NCBI GenBank assembly: GCA_013359225.1 | Contig: JABWCG010000001.1 | Coordinates: 360,021-424,020 of the forward strand | Reading direction: 5' to 3' | Source of the DNA: Candidatus Buchananbacteria bacterium | Lineage (GTDB): Bacteria; Patescibacteriota; Patescibacteriia; Buchananbacterales; UBA6539 | Length of the DNA stretch: 64,000 nt | Notes under the pieces: model-generated | The model's input: only the letters and a program-made list of their open reading frames with translations | What the model was told of the DNA's origin: nothing | Database searches by the model: none | Position numbers and translations under genes: made by a program | Shown: positions 5,476-61,125 of the stretch, in pieces | How the letters are laid out: each line of letters begins with the position of its first letter | Position numbering within the stretch: position 1 is the first letter of the stretch

Positions 5476-6840
5476 ATGGCTCTACAATCAATTAACCCGG
5501 CTACAGAAGAAATTTTTTCCAAAACCGAAGAATTAACCAATGAACAGATTAAAGAAAAAATTACTTTGGCGGATCATACTTTTGCCAAATGGAGGACCAC
5601 AACATTTGAAGACCGGGCAAAATTAATTAATGAGGTAGCTAAAATTTTAAGATCCGAAGCCCAGACGATTGGCGAAATTATGACCAAAGAAATGGGCAAA
5701 CCTATCAAACAAGCCATAGCCGAAGTCGAAAAGTGTGCTTGGGTTTGCGAATATTATGCTAAAGAAGCACCTAAATTTTTAACTCCGGAAAAAATTACCA
5801 CCGATGCCAGCGAAAGTCTGGTTCGATACGATCCGATCGGTATTGTGCTTGCAATTATGCCATGGAATTTCCCGTTTTGGCAGGTTATTCGTTTTGCCGC
5901 CCCGGCTCTTATGGCCGGAAATGTCGGACTGCTCAAGCATGCCTCCAATGTTCAGCTGGCGGCTAAAAAAATTGAAGAAATTTTTTTGCGTGCCGGCATT
6001 CCGGTTGGGGTATTTCAAAATCTTGCCATTAGTTCCGGAAAGGTTGAAACAATCATTCGCGATCCAAGGGTTAAGGCGGTCACTTTAACCGGCAGTGAAC
6101 ATGCTGGCGCTAAAGTTGCAGCTTTGGCCGCTTCAGAAATTAAAAAGTCTGTCTTAGAACTTGGGGGCAGCGATCCCTTTATCGTCCTGGAAGATGCGGA
6201 CATAGCAAATGCCTGTTCAGTCGCCGTTACCGCCCGCAATATCAATAACGGACAAAGCTGCATCGCCGCTAAACGGTTCATTGTGGTTTCAAGCGTTGCT
6301 GAAGAATTCAAAAAATTATTTAAAGAAAAGTTCGAAGCGTTAAAAATTGGCGACCCAATGGCTGAAACAACCGATATCGGCCCGGTTGTCAACAAGCAGG
6401 CTCTGGAAGAACTAGAAAATCAAATCAAAAAATCAGTTGCCGCCGGCGCCAAAATTCTAACTGGCGGAAAGCGGGTAGGAAACACCGGCTACTTCTTACA
6501 GCCAACCATTCTGACTGAGGTCGCACCGGGCATGCCAGCCTACCACGAAGAATTTTTTGGACCGGTTGCATCAGTTATTGTCGTTAAAGACGAGGCTGAA
6601 GCCGTTCAGGTTGCAAACGATACCCATTTTGGTTTAGGTGCCTCAATCTGGACAAGTAACATCAGCCGTGCCAAACAGCTTATTCCGCAAATTGACGCCG
6701 GCGCTGTCTTTGTTAACGGTCTGGTAAAATCCGATCCACGCTTGCCATTTGGCGGTGAAAAGCGTTCTGGTTTTGGTCGTGAATTATCACACCACGGCAT
6801 CAAAGAATTTGTTAATATAAAATCGGTCTGGATTAAATAA
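5476..6840 (+). CDS. NAD(P)-dependent aldehyde dehydrogenase family protein
   Basis: ALDH signatures: the catalytic-Cys region GQSCIAAKR and the Glu motif LELGGSDP. Confidence 0.85.
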   Translation: MALQSINPATEEIFSKTEELTNEQIKEKITLADHTFAKWRTTTFEDRAKLINEVAKILRSEAQTIGEIMTKEMGKPIKQAIAEVEKCAWVCEYYAKEAPKFLTPEKITTDASESLVRYDPIGIVLAIMPWNFPFWQVIRFAAPALMAGNVGLLKHASNVQLAAKKIEEIFLRAGIPVGVFQNLAISSGKVETIIRDPRVKAVTLTGSEHAGAKVAALAASEIKKSVLELGGSDPFIVLEDADIANACSVAVTARNINNGQSCIAAKRFIVVSSVAEEFKKLFKEKFEALKIGDPMAETTDIGPVVNKQALEELENQIKKSVAAGAKILTGGKRVGNTGYFLQPTILTEVAPGMPAYHEEFFGPVASVIVVKDEAEAVQVANDTHFGLGASIWTSNISRAKQLIPQIDAGAVFVNGLVKSDPRLPFGGEKRSGFGRELSHHGIKEFVNIKSVWIK

Positions 6841-18393: not shown

Positions 18394-18603
18394 ATGGAAT
18401 GGTATCACGAAGCGATCGTTGGATTAGCGGCAGTTTATCTGCTCTATCTTTTCGCCGGAGTTGTCATCTCTGGCTACATTCCGCCGTGTGAATCGGGGAT
18501 TTGGGCATATTGCAAGAACGTTCACCTTATGCCTTTTATCATCACGTTGATCTTTTATTCTGAGTTAACCGAGGAAAAACCCCGCCCCGAAGGCTGGGAT
18601 TAG
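18394..18603 (+). CDS. small membrane protein (69 aa), hypothetical
   Basis: GGAGGAAAG SD 8 nt upstream, two TM segments and a conserved-looking Cys pair (PPCESGIWAYCKN). Confidence 0.5.
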   Translation: MEWYHEAIVGLAAVYLLYLFAGVVISGYIPPCESGIWAYCKNVHLMPFIITLIFYSELTEEKPRPEGWD

Positions 18604-26987: not shown

Positions 26988-27082
26988 CGCTAAATAAAGT
27001 TTTACTATCTTTTAACCCCGCCTCCACACACGAGAGGAGGGGTTAAAAATTACTTTATTTATTAATCTTTTTGAAATATATA

Positions 27083-27445
27083 GCGTCGCACAATATATCT
27101 TATGCGACACTATAGGGATATATTTATCCACAAGCAAACAACTAATACAAATAGCTGCTAAAGCTATAAGATAAGCATTTAAATATAGTTTTAGACATTA
27201 ATGGACAACAAGGCCCTTAGGTAAATAAAACTTTTAAAATCAAGCAACTTACATATTACGTACTGATAAATTTTGTTTAATCAATCAAGATATGAATTTA
27301 TTAGCGCGGATGCTAATGAGAGATTAAATCATTTAAAAAGAAAGCTAGACGCCTAACCTTCTTTTTAAATGATTTAATTTGATATATTTTTCTCTAACCC
27401 CTCTTCCCTATTTGCCATTAAAAAAAGATTTATATTGTGCGACGC
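27083..27445. repeat. inverted-repeat-bounded 363-bp non-coding element (MITE-like / structured spacer)
   Basis: GCGTCGCACAATATA (27083-27097) is the exact reverse complement of TATATTGTGCGACGC (27431-27445). The flanks are TA-rich (..TATA | ATAC..). The interior is AT-rich, has no ORF, and contains a perfect 20-bp hairpin and one perfect DnaA-box 9-mer. Confidence 0.35.
27323..27378. other. perfect 20-bp stem / 16-nt loop hairpin (ATTAAATCATTTAAAAAGAA ... TTCTTTTTAAATGATTTAAT)
   Basis: Exact reverse-complement arms at 27323-27342 and 27359-27378 around the loop AGCTAGACGCCTAACC. A T-rich tract follows on the + strand. Confidence 0.6.
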
Positions 27446-45091: not shown

Positions 45092-46105
45092 TTAGTCCTG
45101 CCAAAGCTTTTTTGCCTCATTCCAAATCTCCGGCCGACCCTGCTGTTTTGCCCAGTACCAGTATTCAACACCCCAAAGATACACTTCATTAAACCCTGCC
45201 TGCCGGACATATGAAATATTGTTTTTAAAACGATTCAAATCAAACGACCGAGCCTGCTGTGCCTCAGTCAACTCAATCATCCTTTTGTCAAGCGTCCACG
45301 GCTCCATTTGTAATTCTGTGACCAAAACTCCTTTTAAATTGCCGTTCAAAAATCCGGTGATGTCTGCCTTAAAGCGATATGCTGCCGGCGGCACGAAAAA
45401 ATAATCCCAAAAACCCAAATATTTATTCCAAACGATGCGATACAACGTAATACCAAGTTTGTCCGCCAGACCAGCCGCTGTTTGCCAGTGGTTGAGCTCA
45501 CCACTATCAGTAATAATAATGTCGCGGCTATCAAGCGCCCGAACAGCATCAACTTCCTGCCGCAAAAACTGCTTATCCGGTTTCGGACACTTCCCAAACC
45601 AGGAGAATAAAGGTTCGTTTTCTATCTGCCAGCTTTTAACTACCTGACGATCACGATACCGATTAATTGTCTCCTTAACAAATTCCAATTGATGCTGCTG
45701 GACTGCCAGCTTCGCTAAATCATTGATCCAGGCCGGATCATGACACTCCGGCCAGCGCGGTGCGCGACGGCCAACTGTCAGTATAACCTCAACATCGCGC
45801 CGCTCGGCCTCGGCTAATTGCCAATCAAGCTTCGAAAAATCAAATTGATCCTGAATTGCCTCAATGTCGTCCCAATAGGCAATTAATCGAATTTTATCGA
45901 CCCCTAAATCGTCTAAGATTGCCAAATAGCTTTCTTGCCAGTTTAATTCTAAATCACTAGCATATTTATCGCTGAATGTAACCCCAAAATTCACTTCCTG
46001 CTGTCCAAAATCAAGACTAAATAAAAAAAGCCAGCCAATGGCCAAAATTGCCGCAACTGTCAAAAAAATAACCAATCTTTTAACGATTTTATAAGATTTA
46101 TACAT
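45092..46105 (-). CDS. GH5-like (clan GH-A) glycoside hydrolase, membrane-anchored/secreted
   Basis: An N-terminal TM/signal segment. The WQIENEP motif matches the GH-A acid/base NEP signature and VLVTELQ is a candidate nucleophile region. GC content is visibly higher than in neighbouring genes. Confidence 0.55.
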   Translation of the reverse strand: MYKSYKIVKRLVIFLTVAAILAIGWLFLFSLDFGQQEVNFGVTFSDKYASDLELNWQESYLAILDDLGVDKIRLIAYWDDIEAIQDQFDFSKLDWQLAEAERRDVEVILTVGRRAPRWPECHDPAWINDLAKLAVQQHQLEFVKETINRYRDRQVVKSWQIENEPLFSWFGKCPKPDKQFLRQEVDAVRALDSRDIIITDSGELNHWQTAAGLADKLGITLYRIVWNKYLGFWDYFFVPPAAYRFKADITGFLNGNLKGVLVTELQMEPWTLDKRMIELTEAQQARSFDLNRFKNNISYVRQAGFNEVYLWGVEYWYWAKQQGRPEIWNEAKKLWQD

Positions 46106-46133
46106 ATTTTAATTATAACAATTTAAAACAGCC

Positions 46134-46162
46134 TTGACAAAGAAACTAAAATCATTTATAGT
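46134..46162 (+). promoter_or_regulatory. near-consensus sigma-70 promoter (-35 TTGACA, 17 bp, -10 TATAGT)
   Basis: TTGACA at 46134-46139 and TATAGT at 46157-46162 with an exact 17-bp spacer. It drives the GC-rich small-ORF cassette. Confidence 0.65.
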
Positions 46163-46264
46163 GTTATACATAATTTCTCCTTTTTCCGGGGGATTTTATT
46201 GTTCATTCGGCGAGACCATCAGGTCTCATAACCCTCTAAAAGAAGAGGAAGTGGAGGCAGGACA

Positions 46265-46444
46265 TTGAAGCAGTGTTCCGACAAGCAGAATGATGGCGGT
46301 TTTCATGCCGGTGTGGGCGTACAACGTCACCTCATCGTCCCCGACGATGCTTCTGGCGATCAACGCGAAATGACCTCACAACAGGGTATGACCCTGAGTG
46401 AAGCATACCGCGCTGTTGCCCAGCACCTGGCATTTGCCCGTTAA
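46265..46444 (+). CDS. orphan small protein (59 aa) in GC-rich cassette
   Basis: TTG start 7 nt after GGAGG (46253-46257), stop TAA at 46442-46444. It translates to MKQCSDKQNDGGFHAGVGVQRHLIVPDDASGDQREMTSQQGMTLSEAYRAVAQHLAFAR. Its codon usage (CTG, GCG, CGC) is unlike the host genes. It is bracketed by a consensus promoter and a terminator. Confidence 0.35.
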   Translation: MKQCSDKQNDGGFHAGVGVQRHLIVPDDASGDQREMTSQQGMTLSEAYRAVAQHLAFAR

Positions 46445-46463
46445 TCCTGCTTAATCCGTCCCC

Positions 46464-46520
46464 GACGAGGCGCAACTCAACCCTACAAGGTTGTTTTGCT
46501 CCTCGTCTCTTTTTTTAAAT
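46464..46520 (+). terminator. compound stem-loop + T-run (GACGAGG ... CCTCGTC TCTTTTTTT)
   Basis: A 7-bp outer stem (46464-46470 / 46501-46507) enclosing an inner hairpin CAACC-ctacaa-GGTTG, followed by T7. A weaker opposite-strand hairpin (46526-46549) immediately follows. Confidence 0.55.
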
Positions 46521-46547
46521 AAAAAGACTCTCGTTAAAAAACGACAG

Positions 46548-46763
46548 TCAAAGGATATCGCTATCCCACGTATGCTTGCCGGCTTTAATTTCGGCAACAA
46601 TTGAATCCTCCTCAGCTCGTGATGAAGCATTCCACAACTTCATCAAAATCCGAAATGGCACTTTCTGCAGAAGCGCCCAAGAATACAAAAAGTCTTTTCG
46701 GCACGCATGCGCCAACTCTGGACGAAGATAGCCGTCCGATGACGGCTTGCCATTATCAGACAT
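46548..46763 (-). CDS. hypothetical small protein (71 aa) downstream of mreB paralog
   Basis: ATG 46763 with GGAGG 7 nt upstream on the minus strand, 31 nt after the stop of the preceding gene. It translates to MSDNGKPSSDGYLRPELAHACRKDFLYSWALLQKVPFRILMKLWNASSRAEEDSIVAEIKAGKHTWDSDIL. The track's longer 114-aa ORF extends antisense into the mreB paralog and is rejected. Confidence 0.4.
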   Translation of the reverse strand: MSDNGKPSSDGYLRPELAHACRKDFLYSWALLQKVPFRILMKLWNASSRAEEDSIVAEIKAGKHTWDSDIL

Positions 46764-46794: not shown

Positions 46795-47802
46795 CTACTT
46801 AATTGCCAAGATGCTTCGTTTGTACGACTCAAGATTTTCCAGCGCGATGCCGGTACCTTTTGCCACACAAAACAAAGCTTCATCGGCAACATAAGCCGGA
46901 ACGCCTGTTACTTGGGTAATCAGTTGGTCGATATTACGAAGCAAACTTGAACCACCAGACATAATAATTCCCTTATCGATCACGTCTGCCGAAAGCTCTG
47001 GCGGGGTTTTATGCAATACATCTTTTACTGCCTGAATAATGCCTTCAAGCTCAGCCTGAATAGCATCGGTAATGTCATCGGAAGTTACTGTAATCGTTCG
47101 CGGCAAACCACTTACCACATCACGACCGCGAACTTCTTCAGTCAAACGTTCTTCTAAATACATCGCTGAACCGATATCAATTTTGATTCGTTCAGCGCTG
47201 CGCTCACCAATCGCCAAATTGTAGCGACGACGAATATGTTCAGCAATTGCACTGTCAAAACGGTTACCACCAATTCGTACCGATGTTGAGGCCACGATAC
47301 CGCCCAAAGAAATAACTGCCATTTCTGAAGTGCCGCCACCAATATCAATAATCATATGGCCAGACGGCGAACCAATCGGAATATCAGCGCCAATTGCCGC
47401 TACAATCGGCTCCTTAATGATATACGCCGCCTTCGCACCAGCAGCAATAGTTGCGTCAATCACCGCACGACGCTCAGTTGAAGTGATACCAGCCGGTACG
47501 GCAACCATCACTTCAGGACGAAATAATCGTACACCACCCAATGCCTTATTGACGAAATATCTCAACATCGCAGCGGTTGTTTTATAATCAGCAATTACAC
47601 CATCTTTCATCGGCCGCACGGCAATGATCGTGTCAGGAGTGCGTCCCAACATTTCTTTTGCCTCTGCTCCAACGGCCAAAATTTTCTTATCAACAACAGA
47701 AACTGCCACCACGGACGGTTCATTAATAACGATTCCTCGCTTTGGTACATATACTAGCGAATTCGTAGTTCCCAGATCAATTCCGATCTTCTTTATCAAC
47801 AT
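46795..47802 (-). CDS. MreB-like actin homolog, second paralog (Mbl/MreBH-like)
   Basis: A full actin-fold motif set (IDLGTTNSLVYV, IDIGGGTSEMAVISL, MSGGSSLL). It is divergent from the mreB at 38404-39462. Confidence 0.85.
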   Translation of the reverse strand: MLIKKIGIDLGTTNSLVYVPKRGIVINEPSVVAVSVVDKKILAVGAEAKEMLGRTPDTIIAVRPMKDGVIADYKTTAAMLRYFVNKALGGVRLFRPEVMVAVPAGITSTERRAVIDATIAAGAKAAYIIKEPIVAAIGADIPIGSPSGHMIIDIGGGTSEMAVISLGGIVASTSVRIGGNRFDSAIAEHIRRRYNLAIGERSAERIKIDIGSAMYLEERLTEEVRGRDVVSGLPRTITVTSDDITDAIQAELEGIIQAVKDVLHKTPPELSADVIDKGIIMSGGSSLLRNIDQLITQVTGVPAYVADEALFCVAKGTGIALENLESYKRSILAIK

Positions 47803-58371: not shown

Positions 58372-59748
58372 CTAAAGCTTCATCAGCCGGGCCACTGTGT
58401 CCGGCTGGCAATCGTCGGCCAAAACCGGCTGAGTACCCTTTGGTTCCAGGAAGGGCTGACTGAATTTGAGTCCGTCGGCAGTGCAAATGACCACAACGGT
58501 TTCGCCTTCATGCACCAACCCTCGACTGACCGCTTTTTTCAGACCGGCCAACGCGACGCCGCTTTGCGGACAAACGAAATGGCCGTCTTTAGCGCAGGCC
58601 AGCACTGCCGGGTAAGCTTCCTGGTCAGAAGCGTCCAGAATCGCGCCGTTAGAGGCGATGATTTCCCGCATCACCTTGCGCTTAGACACCGGGTCGCCGA
58701 TTCTCATCGCCGTTGCCATTGTTTCGCCAACCTTAACCGGTTGGTAAATTTCAAGCCACTGCCGGACCAGTGCCGCCTGTTCATCGGCCGATAAATCCGG
58801 CCTGATGGCAATGTTCGGCCATGATATTGCCAGAGGGTTTGCAGCATTTGACTGGCAGCCAATAATCCGGGTCTGATGTTCAAACCCAAGGCTGGTCAGC
58901 AACCGTAAGGCCTTACCCACCGAACTGGCATTACTGCCATTACCAATCGGCACGAAAACGACATCAAGAGATTTCCAGCCGAACTGGCGAATCGCTTGAA
59001 AGACCGTTGTCTGATGTCCTTGAATCCGCGCCGGATTCAGACTGTTGCCAGGGTAAACCCCGCGCTTGACTAACTCACGAAATACTCGCATACAATCATC
59101 AAACGTTCCGGGCAGCAGGATCACTTGCGCGCCAAACAGCCTGACTTGCATCAGTTGCTCGGGCGTAATCTTGCCAGCCGGCAAGATGACTGTGCACTTA
59201 ATTCCGGCGTGGGCGCAAAATGCCGCCAGCGAAGCTGAGGTGTCACCCGTTGAAACACAGGCAATAAATTCGACACCGCCGGCTTTGGCGATGGAAACCA
59301 AGACGGTCATGCCATCGTCCTTGAAACTGCCGGTCGGATTTTTACCGCGAAGCGAAAGCCACAGCTTCAACGGCATGCCGATATATTCCTTAAGATGCCG
59401 TCCGGCCTCAACCAGCGGCACCAAGCCTTCACCAATCGAAACGATGTTGTCCGCCGATAAATCAGGCGCTACCCAGGGTTTGAAATCCCACACCCCGGAG
59501 TTAAAGTCTGACTTCCTGGCGAATAACGCCTTCCAATCGGCCGGGCGGTGATGTAGTGGTACCGGCACGATCATATCGTACAGATTGCCACAATCCGGGC
59601 ATGAAAAGGCCCGTTCAGTGAGCACGTCGGCTTTTCGGCCGCAGCCGATACATGACAGAAAAGACGTTTCTAATTCGTTCATATGTCCTCCCGGTCCGGT
59701 TAGGTTGGTTGTGAAAGGGACAAAAATAAGGTTTGAGACATTATTCAA
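58372..59748 (-). CDS. thrC: threonine synthase (with N-terminal zinc-ribbon)
   Basis: The PLP-lysine motif NPTGSFKDDG, an N-terminal C4 ribbon (CIGCGRK...CPDCGN) and a strong GGGAGGA SD. It lies in a high-GC block. Confidence 0.8.
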   Translation of the reverse strand: MNNVSNLIFVPFTTNLTGPGGHMNELETSFLSCIGCGRKADVLTERAFSCPDCGNLYDMIVPVPLHHRPADWKALFARKSDFNSGVWDFKPWVAPDLSADNIVSIGEGLVPLVEAGRHLKEYIGMPLKLWLSLRGKNPTGSFKDDGMTVLVSIAKAGGVEFIACVSTGDTSASLAAFCAHAGIKCTVILPAGKITPEQLMQVRLFGAQVILLPGTFDDCMRVFRELVKRGVYPGNSLNPARIQGHQTTVFQAIRQFGWKSLDVVFVPIGNGSNASSVGKALRLLTSLGFEHQTRIIGCQSNAANPLAISWPNIAIRPDLSADEQAALVRQWLEIYQPVKVGETMATAMRIGDPVSKRKVMREIIASNGAILDASDQEAYPAVLACAKDGHFVCPQSGVALAGLKKAVSRGLVHEGETVVVICTADGLKFSQPFLEPKGTQPVLADDCQPDTVARLMKL

Positions 59749-59828
59749 GCCTCAAAACACCTTAGACAAAAAATGCCGTTGCGTCAAGAAAAAACGAGCC
59801 TTGCAACCACAAGACTCGTCAAAAACCC

Positions 59829-60743
59829 TTAACGAACAAACAGACTGATTGGCACAACCACGATAGCGGTTGCGCCAGCCGCCTTCAATTCGGGGATCAG
59901 GCGCTCTACTGCCGACTCCTCAACAACCGCCTCCAAGGCAAAGCCTCCCGACTTCGAAAGATCCGACCTCGTCGGCTCGTCCGCCGACGGCAGAATTCGG
60001 CAGACATCACTGCAGTTTCTAGCCGCCACATTGCACTTGACAAGGACTTTGGTTCGCGCAGCAATCACGGCATTTAACAGCAGCCGAAATTCGGCGATGA
60101 TGTTTGCCTGAACCTTATTTTCCAGCGCCGCCGGATAAGTAATCAGACACGTCTGCGATTCCAGCGCCTGTTCAACAATGCGCCAGCCGCCGACTTTCAG
60201 CGAAAGCCCCGTTTCGGTGTTCTCAAAAATCGCGTCGGCCAAGCCATGAAACGCCTCAAGCGAACCATGAACATGAATGATATCGGGACTGACTCTCTTG
60301 CCATCAAGCCAGCGCCTGGCAAATGATGGATATTCGGTCGCCACCTCATGCTCTGGCATCAAATCAGTCACCGACTGGATCGGCGAATTTTCCGGCACCG
60401 CCAACACCAACTTAGTTGACCCGTACCCGCCACGCGACAACGGATACCTGTCTAAGACCACTACCTGGTCTTCAACGCCGGCCTCCGCAATCAAATCCTG
60501 AGCGGTAAACGCCAGTTCCGCCAAACCGCGGGCCACTACTTTAGGCGAATCCCACGGCCGCATTCGGCGAACAACATCAAACGGTGGCGCAAACAAACGC
60601 TTGTTGGCGATAATACCACGATACGATCGATCACCCCCCGGATAACTAACCGCACAATGGGCATCGGCAAGTAACCGGTGAATCACTTCCTTTAGTGATC
60701 CGTCCGGAACTACCAAGCGACATCCCTCACGACCCTCGTTCAA
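59829..60743 (-). CDS. hisG: ATP phosphoribosyltransferase, long form with C-terminal regulatory domain
   Basis: The periplasmic-binding-like catalytic fold and a C-terminal HisG_C-like segment (AAGATAIVVVPISLF). It overlaps hisI by 17 nt. Assignment is moderately confident. Confidence 0.65.
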   Translation of the reverse strand: MNEGREGCRLVVPDGSLKEVIHRLLADAHCAVSYPGGDRSYRGIIANKRLFAPPFDVVRRMRPWDSPKVVARGLAELAFTAQDLIAEAGVEDQVVVLDRYPLSRGGYGSTKLVLAVPENSPIQSVTDLMPEHEVATEYPSFARRWLDGKRVSPDIIHVHGSLEAFHGLADAIFENTETGLSLKVGGWRIVEQALESQTCLITYPAALENKVQANIIAEFRLLLNAVIAARTKVLVKCNVAARNCSDVCRILPSADEPTRSDLSKSGGFALEAVVEESAVERLIPELKAAGATAIVVVPISLFVR

Positions 60744-61125
60744 ATACGTATCCTCCTTCCTGCACTACACCATCAAGCTTAGTGAAAAAACAGCTTGGTT
60801 TACCAAAATGGCAGGCATACCCGTCGCCTGACACTTCAACCAAAAGTAGCACACAGTCTTTGTCGCAGTCAAGATAAGCGTCCCGGATTTTCATTGTGTT
60901 ACCGGATTCACCACCCTTATACCAAAGCAAATGGCGCGAAGTTGACCACAGCCAAACCTCGCCAGTCGCTTTAGTGTTTGACCAGGCTTCCTGATCAATA
61001 AAGCCGTGCATCAGTACCTCCTTTGTCCGGTAGTCCTGGACAATCGCCAGTACCAAACCGCCGCGCTGATTCAGCGACAAATCCAGTCGTGCTGAAAAAT
61101 CAGGAGCAAGCTCTTCTTTTTCCAT
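60727..61125 (-). CDS. hisI: phosphoribosyl-AMP cyclohydrolase (HisI domain only)
   Basis: LVLAIVQD ... the Cys-rich metal site (DCDKDCVLLLVE...GYACH). At 132 aa there is no HisE domain. Confidence 0.8.
   Translation of the reverse strand: MEKEELAPDFSARLDLSLNQRGGLVLAIVQDYRTKEVLMHGFIDQEAWSNTKATGEVWLWSTSRHLLWYKGGESGNTMKIRDAYLDCDKDCVLLLVEVSGDGYACHFGKPSCFFTKLDGVVQEGGYVFERGS

What the first reader, a model, noticed from the sequence alone, without database searches (positions are those of the whole stretch)
46134..46520. Self-contained GC-rich mini-cassette: consensus promoter, SD, 59-aa TTG-initiated ORF and terminator, all with foreign codon usage
The promoter has TTGACA-17-TATAGT. GGAGG lies 7 nt before a TTG start, and the ORF ends before a compound terminator at 46464-46520. 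The 59-aa ORF sits just under the track cutoff. Its GC content is about 55 percent and it is rich in CTG/GCG/CGC codons, in sharp contrast to flanking host genes. It lies next to a GH5-like hydrolase gene that also shows elevated GC content. It is convergent with the mreB-paralog operon. The layout suggests a recently acquired small gene, possibly an addiction or regulatory module. Alternatively it could be a roughly 340-nt non-coding RNA, in which case the ORF would be fortuitous.
Basis: seen in the sequence. Interest (0 to 1): 0.5.

Follow-up and report, generated by a model that had tools for sequence, protein, structure and literature searches.

The report
Orphan small gene with folded mRNA
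This is a real, self-contained transcription unit in an uncultured Buchananbacteria (Patescibacteria) genome that most likely encodes a species-restricted 59-residue protein from an unusually tightly folded mRNA, and it is of modest interest because no family, known function or conserved structure can be tied to it.

Summary

The RNA folds more stably than any other part of the 64 kb window (z about -5.6). It matches no Rfam family, and ARAGORN finds no tRNA or tmRNA.

The ORF product has no relatives in 5.8 billion clustered proteins, 1.84 billion representatives, Pfam, PHROGs, PADLOC or PDB. The DNA is absent from 75 syntenic Patescibacteria loci and from JGI and viral contigs.

One sister lineage (L001, L082) has a cassette at the same site. 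It sits between a conserved bidirectional promoter and a conserved back-to-back terminator, with a strong SD and a 49-52-codon ORF. Between those two genomes the ORF evolves like a protein: no indels in the ORF, indels in both UTRs, and 5 synonymous to 2 non-synonymous changes in the C-terminal half.

By analogy, and because ORF plus SD arises in only 0.09% of shuffles, I read the window unit as an unannotated, fast-evolving small-protein gene.

"Recently acquired" and "addiction module" are not supported. A non-coding or dual-function RNA is not excluded.

The parts
46112..46140 (-). Promoter of the GH-like gene (TTGTCA-17-TATAAT with an extended TG). Its -35 overlaps the -35 of the cassette promoter back-to-back. 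The -10 ends 6 nt before the ATG at 46105, so this mRNA is probably leaderless.
   Evidence: The palindromic arrangement of the two promoters is repeat I2. Leaderless status is inferred from spacing.
46134..46162 (+). Sigma-70-type promoter of the cassette (TTGACA-17-TATAGT). The inferred transcription start is about 46168-46170.
   Evidence: 11/12 matches. The core CTTGACAAAGAAA is identical in L001 and L082. The start site is inferred.
46170..46264 (+). 5' UTR of about 95 nt with three hairpins (46176-46193, 46212-46227, 46233-46248). UCUCC at 46176-46180 can pair with the SD in alternative folds.
46253..46257 (+). Shine-Dalgarno sequence GGAGG, 7 nt upstream of the start codon.
   Evidence: Its chance co-occurrence with the ORF is 0.09%. 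SDs are rare in host genes, 3 of 55.
46260..46278 (+). 8-bp hairpin that holds the UUG start codon. Pairing probability is 0.94-0.98 and the energy is -5.8 kcal/mol.
46265..46444 (+). ORF59 (TTG start, TAA stop): MKQCSDKQNDGGFHAGVGVQRHLIVPDDASGDQREMTSQQGMTLSEAYRAVAQHLAFAR.
   Evidence: Coding-like codon-position GC and frame preference. Orphan in all searches. AlphaFold2 predicts only a C-terminal helix, residues 44-57.
46283..46452 (+). 170-nt rod with a three-way junction inside the coding region (62 predicted pairs). It includes the perfect hairpins CAUCGUC-CCC-GACGAUG and CAGGGU-AUG-ACCCUG.
   Evidence: z -4.9. It folds at least as well on the minus strand. No related structure was found in 74 loci.
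46336..46350 (+). First copy of a 15-nt direct repeat, CGTCCCCGACGAUGC. The second copy, at 46457-46471, forms the 5' flank of the terminator stem.
   Evidence: Its significance is unknown.
46464..46517 (+). Intrinsic terminator: a 44-nt interrupted hairpin (-24.4 kcal/mol) plus UCUUUUUUU. It starts 19 nt after the stop codon.
46522..46555 (-). Intrinsic terminator of the mreB-small71 operon, back-to-back with the cassette terminator. The junction TTTTTTTAAA(T)AAAAAGAC is also present in L001.
46548..46763 (-). Convergent 71-aa gene (AGGAGG SD) downstream of mreB, annotated in NCBI as hypothetical protein HUU49_02205. It is the only demonstrably conserved partner of the cassette.

Best explanation
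The unit is an unannotated, lineage-restricted small-protein gene.

Proposed mechanism:
- RNA polymerase starts at about 46169 from a near-consensus sigma-70 promoter. That promoter shares its -35 region back-to-back with the promoter of the leaderless GH-like gene.
- The roughly 340-nt mRNA has a 95-nt hairpin-rich 5' UTR.
- Ribosomes are recruited by a canonical GGAGG and initiate at UUG 46265, which sits in a modest 8-bp hairpin.
- The product is a 59-residue soluble protein with a disordered N-terminal part and a C-terminal amphipathic helix.
- Transcription stops at a strong intrinsic terminator 19 nt after the stop codon.
- The GC-rich coding region folds into a 170-nt rod. This probably stabilises the mRNA and damps translation rather than acting as a separate RNA machine.

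Status of each step:
- Shown: the sequence signals, the thermodynamic fold, the orphan status, and the protein-like evolution of the positional counterpart in L001/L082.
- Inferred: transcription, translation, any equivalence of ORF59 with that counterpart, and the role of the fold.
- The protein's biochemical function is not known.
For: - Promoter 11/12 and terminator -24.4 kcal/mol.
- An ORF of at least 59 aa preceded by GGAGG occurs in 0.09% of dinucleotide shuffles of the transcript body.
- ORF-frame GC1/2/3 is 0.70/0.42/0.53, the same rank order as host genes (0.50/0.35/0.40). Codon log-odds are -0.11 in frame against -0.84 in the other two plus-strand frames.
- The stop codon lies 19 nt before the terminator.
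- L001 and L082 carry a unit at the same site with the same promoter core, AGGAG(G) SD, a GTG start, a 49-52-codon ORF and the same terminator junction.
- Between L001 and L082 (86.5% nt identity) the ORF has no indels while both UTRs do. Segment identities are: 5' UTR 0.65, ORF C-terminal half 0.90, 3' UTR 0.47.
- In that comparison the C-terminal half has 5 synonymous and 2 non-synonymous changes (dN/dS about 0.1, Fisher p 0.007). For the whole ORF p is 0.01.
- The convergent neighbour, small71, is a conserved protein shared with that lineage.
- All four small ORFs in this gap in the two lineages carry strong SDs, although only 3 of 55 host genes do.
- No RNA family fits.
Against: - ORF59 has no detectable similarity to the L001/L082 protein. 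BLASTP finds nothing, hhalign gives probability 0.1%, and the local-alignment shuffle gives p 0.11. Only a post-hoc C-terminal match, G-[MF]-x-L-S-[ED]-x-x-R, reaches p 0.012.
- ORF59 has no homologues anywhere.
- AlphaFold2 gives pLDDT 65 with a single helix.
- Codon log-odds fall below the 5th percentile of host gene segments.
- The NCBI annotation apparently does not call the ORF. Its exact sequence is on record only from Logan contigs, while the neighbour has an NCBI entry. This is an inference.
- An ORF of this length alone is expected in 22% of shuffles.
- The fold is the strongest in the window. It is more stable than 298 of 300 synonymous-codon permutations (z -2.7), which fits selection at the RNA level.
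- The only population variants, 46320 U>C in a bulge and 46378 A>G turning A-U into G-U, are compatible with both the structure and coding.
Confidence: 0.55

Rival explanations
1. The unit is a stand-alone structured non-coding RNA of about 340 nt, or a dual-function RNA whose main activity is at the RNA level. On this reading the ORF and SD are fortuitous or secondary.
For: - Fold z is -5.8 for the full unit, -3.9 without the terminator and -4.9 for the 176-nt core. This is the most extreme in the window against a background of -0.86 +/- 1.55.
- The unit is a GC-rich island in an AT-rich genome with its own promoter and terminator. Surveys of GC-rich intergenic regions use this signature to find structured RNAs (PMC6429828, PMC11109978).
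- The structure is stronger than in synonymous-codon permutations.
- Both known SNPs preserve the structure.
- The ORF product is an orphan and mostly disordered.
Against: - No Rfam family matches, even at E up to 10, and ARAGORN finds nothing.
- There are no GNRA or UNCG loops or other tertiary-motif hallmarks. The helices are mostly perfect Watson-Crick palindromes that fold equally well or better on the opposite strand.
- A covariance model of the core finds nothing in 74 related loci.
- The positional counterpart in L001 is not significantly structured (z -1.35) and evolves as a coding sequence.
- SD plus ORF has p of about 0.001 under the non-coding null.
Confidence: 0.22
2. The unit is a recently acquired foreign cassette, such as an addiction or toxin-antitoxin-like module or a relic of a mobile element, inserted between mreB and the GH gene.
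For: - GC is 12-14 points above the window mean.
- It has a strong SD and a TTG start, like the GC-rich, probably transferred hisG gene 14 kb away, and unlike host genes.
- The island-versus-host codon log-ratio is +0.08, about 2 sd above host segments.
- The mreB-GH gap is a variable spot, 196-2089 bp with different contents, among relatives.
Against: - The promoter core, the terminator junction and the partner gene are shared with a lineage whose GH protein is only 65% identical. The site is therefore old.
- There are no hits in phage, plasmid or E. coli collections, viral contigs, PHROGs or PADLOC.
- The weak HEC-02B and DUF5845 hits of the neighbour are not reproduced by its homologues.
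- There are no flanking repeats, integrase or transposase, and no second copy in the window.
- ORF59 is not hydrophobic, and no antisense promoter was found.
- The two genes are convergent, not an operon.
Confidence: 0.1
3. The unit is a DNA-level palindromic element, such as a MITE-like or recombination-prone inverted repeat, or is otherwise non-functional sequence. On this reading the promoter-like, SD-like and ORF features are incidental.
For: - The core helices are near-perfect DNA palindromes.
- The minus strand folds even better: -81.7 against -70.9 kcal/mol for the core.
- Relatives carry GC-rich hairpin repeats in the same gap.
Against: - The unit is single-copy in 64 kb and absent from 75 loci.
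- It has no terminal inverted repeats with target-site duplication.
- Promoter, SD, start, stop and terminator occur together in the correct order and spacing.
- The sequence is nearly identical in six sequencing runs from at least three run series.
Confidence: 0.08

Closest known systems
Lineage-restricted small ORF (sORF) genes found in long GC-rich intergenic regions of AT-rich bacterial genomes (category defined in PMC11109978; approach in PMC6429828)
   Same: It is a long, GC-rich intergenic island with its own promoter, SD, start, stop and terminator, and standard annotation did not call it. [quoted passage not shown]
   Different: For ORF59 itself the defining conservation pattern cannot be shown, because only near-identical copies exist. 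The fold is far stronger than expected for an ordinary mRNA.
Type I toxin mRNAs such as hok/sok (own knowledge of the family)
   Same: It is a short (300-400 nt), highly structured, stable mRNA with its own promoter and terminator. The start codon is buried in a hairpin, and 5' and 3' sequences are able to pair with the SD.
   Different: The product is hydrophilic with no membrane helix. No antisense RNA promoter was detected. There is no family match and no overlap with the convergent transcript unless the terminators are read through.
Dual-function RNAs that are both regulators and mRNAs, such as SgrS/SgrT and RNAIII/hld (own knowledge)
   Same: It is a stand-alone transcript that combines a small ORF with extensive stable structure outside and inside the ORF.
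   Different: No target-pairing region, no conservation and no regulator-type context are known here. This is only a formal possibility.
Housekeeping structured RNAs of similar size that form GC-rich islands (RNase P RNA, tmRNA, 6S RNA, large SRP RNA)
   Same: Size of about 340 nt, GC enrichment, own promoter and terminator, and a strong fold.
   Different: Rfam covariance models give no hit even at E up to 10, and ARAGORN finds no tmRNA. The unit is absent from the syntenic site of most relatives.

Membership tests
Any Rfam 15 RNA family (including RNase P, tmRNA, 6S, SRP, riboswitches, OLE/GOLLD/ROOL/raiA-type large RNAs) | A covariance-model score at or above the family's gathering threshold | tested here: not met
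   No hits at the gathering threshold over the whole window. In E-value mode on 901 nt and on 356 nt, the only hits are chance-level ones of 13-18 bits to plastid, microRNA and snoRNA models.
tmRNA / tRNA-like | A tRNA-like domain and a tag reading frame detectable by ARAGORN | tested here: not met
   no tRNA or tmRNA genes in the window.
Protein-coding small ORF (sORF criteria of PMC11109978) | [quoted passage not shown] | tested here: inconclusive
   For ORF59 only two SNPs are known, one conservative non-synonymous and one synonymous. For the cassette at the same site in L001/L082 the criterion is met: the frame is kept, there are no indels, and the C-terminal half has 5 synonymous and 2 non-synonymous changes, p 0.007. 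Homology between the two ORFs is not demonstrable.
Protein-coding small ORF | A translation initiation signal correctly spaced from the first start codon | tested here: met
   GGAGG, 7 nt, then TTG. This occurs in 0.09% of shuffles.
Type I toxin-antitoxin (hok/sok, txpA/RatA-like) | A small hydrophobic, membrane-inserting toxin peptide | tested here: not met
   The ORF59 sequence has no hydrophobic stretch of transmembrane length. The alternative-frame 27-aa ORF has only an 11-residue hydrophobic start and no SD.
Type I toxin-antitoxin | A cis- or trans-encoded antisense RNA with its own promoter that overlaps the toxin mRNA | tested here: not met
   The promoter scan finds no minus-strand promoter inside 46170-46520. 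The convergent operon has its own terminator at 46522-46555. Read-through was not testable.
Type II toxin-antitoxin / addiction module or known defence system | Two adjacent co-transcribed genes with recognisable toxin and antitoxin (or defence) domains | tested here: not met
   ORF59 has no Pfam or PADLOC hits, and only one chance-level PHROGs hit (E 0.12, unknown function). The weak hits of small71 (E 0.003-0.05) are not reproduced by its homologues. The two genes are convergent.
MITE / repeated palindromic element | Multiple dispersed copies with terminal inverted repeats and target-site duplications | tested here: not met
   There is no second copy in 64 kb or in 75 related loci, and no duplication flanks the 46283/46452 arms. 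The rest of the 601-kb contig was not available.
Beta-propeller / Asp-box repeat proteins (hits P0004 and P0005) | Significant similarity of a single repeat unit | tested here: not met
   The full-sequence E-values of 1e-4 and 6e-4 come from summing 7-8 near-identical repeats. Each repeat scores only -1.6 to 6.6 bits, with independent E-values of at least 1.7e6.

The most novel reading that the evidence does not exclude
The roughly 340-nt transcript could be a new, CPR-lineage-specific structured RNA, or a dual-function RNA, whose 170-nt rod is the functional part. Alternatively, ORF59 and the convergent 71-aa gene could form a previously undescribed two-small-protein module. Such a module would be tied to the mreB locus, held between a conserved bidirectional promoter and a conserved bidirectional terminator, with an interior that is replaced or diverges extremely fast between lineages.
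Probability: 0.12. Interest if true: 0.5.

Novelty: new member of a known kind. Interest (0 to 1): 0.25.

Why it matters
If it is translated, this adds one more unannotated, species-restricted small protein to a Patescibacteria genome. It also illustrates two points useful to annotators of CPR genomes:
- In a genome where most genes lack an SD and many appear leaderless, the few SD-led genes are small orphan ORFs and GC-rich, probably transferred genes.
- A gap between conserved genes can keep its promoter and terminator while the coding interior changes beyond recognition.

It does not open a long-standing question. Without expression data or more diverged copies, nothing can be said about its function.

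Tried and rejected
RNA identity:
- RNase P, tmRNA, SRP and 6S were considered because of the size, the GC island and some motif look-alikes (GAGGAAGU, AAUCCUGCUUA). They were rejected because Rfam shows nothing even at E up to 10 and ARAGORN finds nothing.

Origin of the DNA:
- An enterobacterial or plasmid/phage origin was suggested by the E. coli-like look of the sequence. blastn in distant mode against E. coli genomes, plasmids and phages found no match.

Relatives of the element itself:
- nhmmer against 75 syntenic loci found nothing.
- A covariance model of the core found nothing.
- Peptide-pattern scans with ORF59 of viral and JGI metagenome contigs found nothing.
- Searching for more cassettes through the partner protein found only the window, L001 and L082.

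Protein-level leads:
- phmmer hits to the repeat proteins P0004 and P0005 are an artefact of summed repeats.
- A ribbon-helix-helix or HTH reading of the C-terminal G-x-T-L-S-E-x-x-R motif has no Pfam support even at E up to 10.
- A weak tblastn match of the L001 ORF to an ECF sigma factor in L033 is not significant.
- A type I toxin in an alternative frame (27 aa, MMAVFMPVWAY...) has no SD and no transmembrane-length segment.

Other attempts:
- Strand assignment from G-U pairs was uninformative, because the minus strand folds as well.
- A literature search for SD use or leaderless mRNAs in Patescibacteria found no papers.
Full report
**1. Observation**

All the sequence features in the finding are present.
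- The promoter scan reports TTGACA-17-TATAGT at 46134-46162, 11 of 12 matches.
- GGAGG lies at 46253-46257, seven bases before TTG 46265. That TTG is the first start codon after an in-frame TAA at 46229.
- The ORF runs to TAA at 46442-46444 and encodes 59 aa.
- Nineteen bases later a 44-nt interrupted hairpin begins (46464-46507, -24.4 kcal/mol, z -7.0), followed by UCUUUUUUU.
- GC is 0.53-0.555 across 46200-46500, against 0.41 for the window.

Some details needed correcting.
- In frame the ORF has two CTG, two CGC and no GCG codons.
- The neighbouring hydrolase has only weak GH42/GH10 Pfam matches.
- The GC-richest stretch of the window is a thrC/hisG/hisI block at 58.3-61.1 kb.

**2. Context**

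The window comes from a Candidatus Buchananbacteria (Patescibacteria) MAG. The neighbouring 71-aa protein is NCBI's HUU49_02205, from a 601-kb contig.

All surrounding genes are on the minus strand, in this order: BNR-repeat protein, holB, GH-like gene (45092-46105), then the gap, then a 71-aa gene (46548-46763), mreB (46795-47802) and glycosyltransferases.

The cassette is the only plus-strand unit here.
- Its -35 box overlaps, back-to-back, the -35 of a minus-strand promoter (TTGTCA-17-TATAAT). That promoter's -10 ends six bases before the GH start codon, so the GH mRNA is probably leaderless.
- Its terminator abuts the terminator of the mreB-small71 operon (46522-46555).

**3. It is not a known RNA**

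- Rfam 15 gives no hit at gathering thresholds in the whole window.
- In E-value mode it gives only chance-level matches of 13-18 bits, on 901 nt and on 356 nt.
- ARAGORN finds no tRNA or tmRNA.
- I had suspected RNase P, tmRNA or SRP from the size and a few motif look-alikes. These tests do not support that.

**4. The fold is real in the thermodynamic sense**

- The 356-nt unit folds at -132.5 kcal/mol, z -5.8.
- Without the terminator z is -3.9.
- The 176-nt core (46280-46455) has z -4.9.
- Among 106 windows of the same length across the 64 kb, the mean z is -0.86 with sd 1.55. This locus is the most extreme.
- The core is a long interrupted rod closed by AAGCAG/CUGCUU, with a three-way junction and several perfect short palindromes.
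- Permuting synonymous codons within ORF59 weakens the fold (z -2.7; 2 of 300 permutations fold as well as the native sequence). The structure is therefore not just a by-product of the amino-acid sequence.

There are caveats.
- The opposite strand folds as well or better.
- None of the hairpin loops in the predicted fold is a GNRA or UNCG tetraloop.
- Nothing can be said about covariation.

**5. The ORF product is an orphan**

- The word-indexed search of 5.8 billion clustered proteins finds only one cluster, at 98% identity.
- Full phmmer against 1.84 billion representatives finds that same cluster plus two repeat proteins. Their scores are sums of 7-8 near-identical repeats, each worth -1.6 to 6.6 bits, so this is an artefact.
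- Pfam, PADLOC and PDB sequences give nothing, and PHROGs gives one chance-level hit at E 0.12.
- Peptide-pattern scans of viral contigs and JGI metagenomes find no relative.
- blastn against E. coli genomes, plasmids and phages finds nothing.
- The exact ORF occurs on short Logan contigs from SRR10914234-6. Its C-terminal 48 codons lie on a contig from SRR25608322 that is identical in DNA.
- SRR20608312 differs at two positions in the element. 46320 U>C lies in a bulge and gives V19A. 46378 A>G turns an A-U pair into G-U and is synonymous. These fit both coding and structure and decide nothing.
- AlphaFold2 without an alignment gives pLDDT 65 and only a C-terminal helix.

**6. Signals of coding within the window**

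- An ORF of this length alone is unremarkable, appearing in 22% of shuffles.
- An ORF led by GGAGG at 5-10 nt occurs in 0.09% of shuffles, and one led by any 4-mer SD in 1.3%.
- The ORF frame has GC1/2/3 of 0.70/0.42/0.53. This is the same rank order as host genes (0.50/0.35/0.40).
- It has the best codon log-odds of the six frames, -0.11 against -0.84 for the other plus-strand frames. That is still below the 5th percentile of host gene segments.
- Host genes almost never have an SD (3 of 55), and many have a -10 box directly before the ATG.
- The SD-led genes in the window are ORF59, the 71-aa neighbour, a superoxide-dismutase-like gene, a 69-aa hydrophobic ORF, and the GC-rich thrC and hisG genes.

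**7. The key comparison**

The order GT-GT-mreB-gap-GH-holB-BNR is conserved in a dozen Buchananbacteria-like genomes. The gap varies from 196 to 2089 bp and holds different things.

Neither nhmmer nor a covariance model of the core finds the element in 75 loci.

One genome, L001, has the same layout.
- A 58-aa gene after mreB is homologous to the 71-aa gene (33% identity, E 2e-9).
- A plus-strand-equivalent unit has the same promoter core (CTTGACAAAGAAA), AGGAGG, a GTG start, a 49-codon GC-rich ORF, a terminator, and the same T-run/A-run/GAC junction with the opposing terminator.

A third genome, L082, is 86.5% identical to L001 in DNA and carries the same unit. Comparing these two gives a coding signature.
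- Promoter identity is 0.89.
- Distal 5' UTR identity is 0.65, with an indel.
- ORF N-terminal half identity is 0.75 and C-terminal half 0.90, with no indels in the ORF.
- 3' UTR identity is 0.47, with a 5-nt indel.
- Terminator identity is 0.91.
- In the C-terminal half there are five synonymous and two conservative non-synonymous changes (dN/dS about 0.1, Fisher p 0.007). Over the whole ORF p is 0.01.

The unit at this site in the sister lineage is therefore a genuine small-protein gene.

**8. Same gene or replaced gene?**

- ORF59 and the L001/L082 protein show no significant similarity. BLASTP finds none. The local-alignment shuffle gives p 0.11. hhalign gives probability 0.1% but picks GFDLSD/GMTLSE.
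- Both proteins have a disordered N-terminal part and a C-terminal helix that starts with G-[MF]-x-L-S-[ED]-x-x-R about 19 residues from the end. That match was chosen post hoc (p 0.012).
- The well-conserved neighbour drops to 33% identity over the same evolutionary distance. A 20-residue conserved segment at about 30% identity would be undetectable, so divergent orthology is plausible but unproven. In-situ replacement between conserved flanks is equally possible.
- The L001 unit is not notably structured (z -1.35). The strong fold is therefore specific to the window's version.

**9. 'Foreign' and 'addiction module'**

- Codon usage of ORF59, and of the 71-aa gene, lies between that of host genes and that of the GC-rich thrC/his island. 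The log-ratio is +0.08, against -0.23 +/- 0.14 for host segments and +0.23 +/- 0.11 for the island.
- The shared flanks and partner gene show that the locus predates the split from L001. 'Recently acquired' is not supported for the locus as a whole.
- No toxin, antitoxin or defence family matches ORF59.
- The weak HEC-02B and DUF5845 hits of the 71-aa protein are not reproduced by its homologues.
- The two genes are convergent. ORF59 has no membrane segment, and no antisense promoter is seen.

**10. Mechanism proposed**

- Transcription starts near 46169 from the shared bidirectional promoter region.
- The 5' UTR has three hairpins.
- Initiation is SD-dependent at UUG 46265. The start codon is held in a modest 8-bp hairpin (-5.8 kcal/mol, pairing probability 0.94-0.98).
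- The SD has several weak alternative partners, including UCUCC near the 5' end.
- A 59-aa soluble protein is translated.
- Transcription terminates at 46464-46517.
- The GC-rich rod probably lengthens mRNA life and limits translation.
- Shown: the signals, the fold energetics, and the coding behaviour of the positional counterpart.
- Inferred: expression, translation, and the role of the fold.

**11. Comparison and verdict**

The closest known kind is the lineage-restricted small ORF found in long GC-rich intergenic regions of AT-rich genomes, the 'sORF' category of PMC11109978 (approach in PMC6429828).

The unit resembles type I toxin mRNAs in size, stability and the buried start codon. It fails their defining features, which are a hydrophobic toxin and an antisense RNA.

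It is not a member of any Rfam family.

My estimates are about 0.55 for a small-protein gene, about 0.22 for an ncRNA or mainly RNA-level function, about 0.1 for a foreign or addiction cassette, and under 0.1 for an incidental palindromic sequence.

Novelty is that of a new member of a known kind, and interest is low to moderate.

Noticed in passing
window 58372-61125 (minus strand): Threonine synthase-like (458 aa), hisG-like (304 aa, TTG start) and hisI-like (132 aa) genes have 55-59% GC against a 41% window mean. thrC and hisG have strong GGAGG SDs that host genes lack. This looks like a horizontally acquired biosynthetic block in a Patescibacteria genome.
   Followed up: partly
window, whole; for example starts at 5476, 9008, 21328, 24284, 46105: Only 3 of 55 long ORFs have a 5-mer SD near a candidate start. 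Many have a TATAAT-like box 6-9 nt before the ATG, which suggests widespread leaderless or near-leaderless mRNAs in this organism.
   Followed up: partly
window 27010-27445: An AT-rich convergent intergenic region has a fold z of -6.4, the second strongest in the window. It contains nested inverted repeats, including a perfect 15-nt pair (27083-27097 / 27431-27445) 333 nt apart and a 26-nt-arm hairpin at 27323-27378. It may be a MITE-like element.
   Followed up: partly
window 46548-46763 (minus strand): A 71-aa gene with an AGGAGG SD lies 31 nt after the mreB stop codon (HUU49_02205). Its family has only three known sequences (window, L001, L082). The shared motif is LM[KQ][LI]WNA[SK]S. No family or structure match is reproducible.
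   Followed up: yes
loci L002-L010, L029, L070, between mreB and the GH gene: The gap is a hot spot of turnover. L009, L010, L029 and L070 carry a small basic protein (MGQNSALKARLKHAKKNT...). L004 and L005 carry a 313-357-aa ORF. L010 carries a 551-aa ORF. L002, L004 and L005 carry GC-rich hairpin repeats.
   Followed up: partly
window 18394-18603 (plus strand): An SD-led (GGAGG, 9 nt) 69-aa hydrophobic ORF, another candidate small-protein gene.
   Followed up: no
L001 5905-5930 and the corresponding part of L082 (minus strand of both loci): The 5'-terminal hairpin of the sister-lineage cassette mRNA keeps its pairing through a C-G to U-A double change (AUCCAC/GUGGAU versus AUCUA/UAGAU). This suggests a conserved 5' stem-loop.
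   Followed up: no
window 46336-46350 and 46457-46471: A 15-nt direct repeat, CGTCCCCGACGA(T/G)GC, occurs twice. Each copy can form a CGUC-CCC-GACG mini-hairpin. The second copy overlaps the 5' arm of the terminator, so alternative pairings with the terminator 3' arm are possible.
   Followed up: partly
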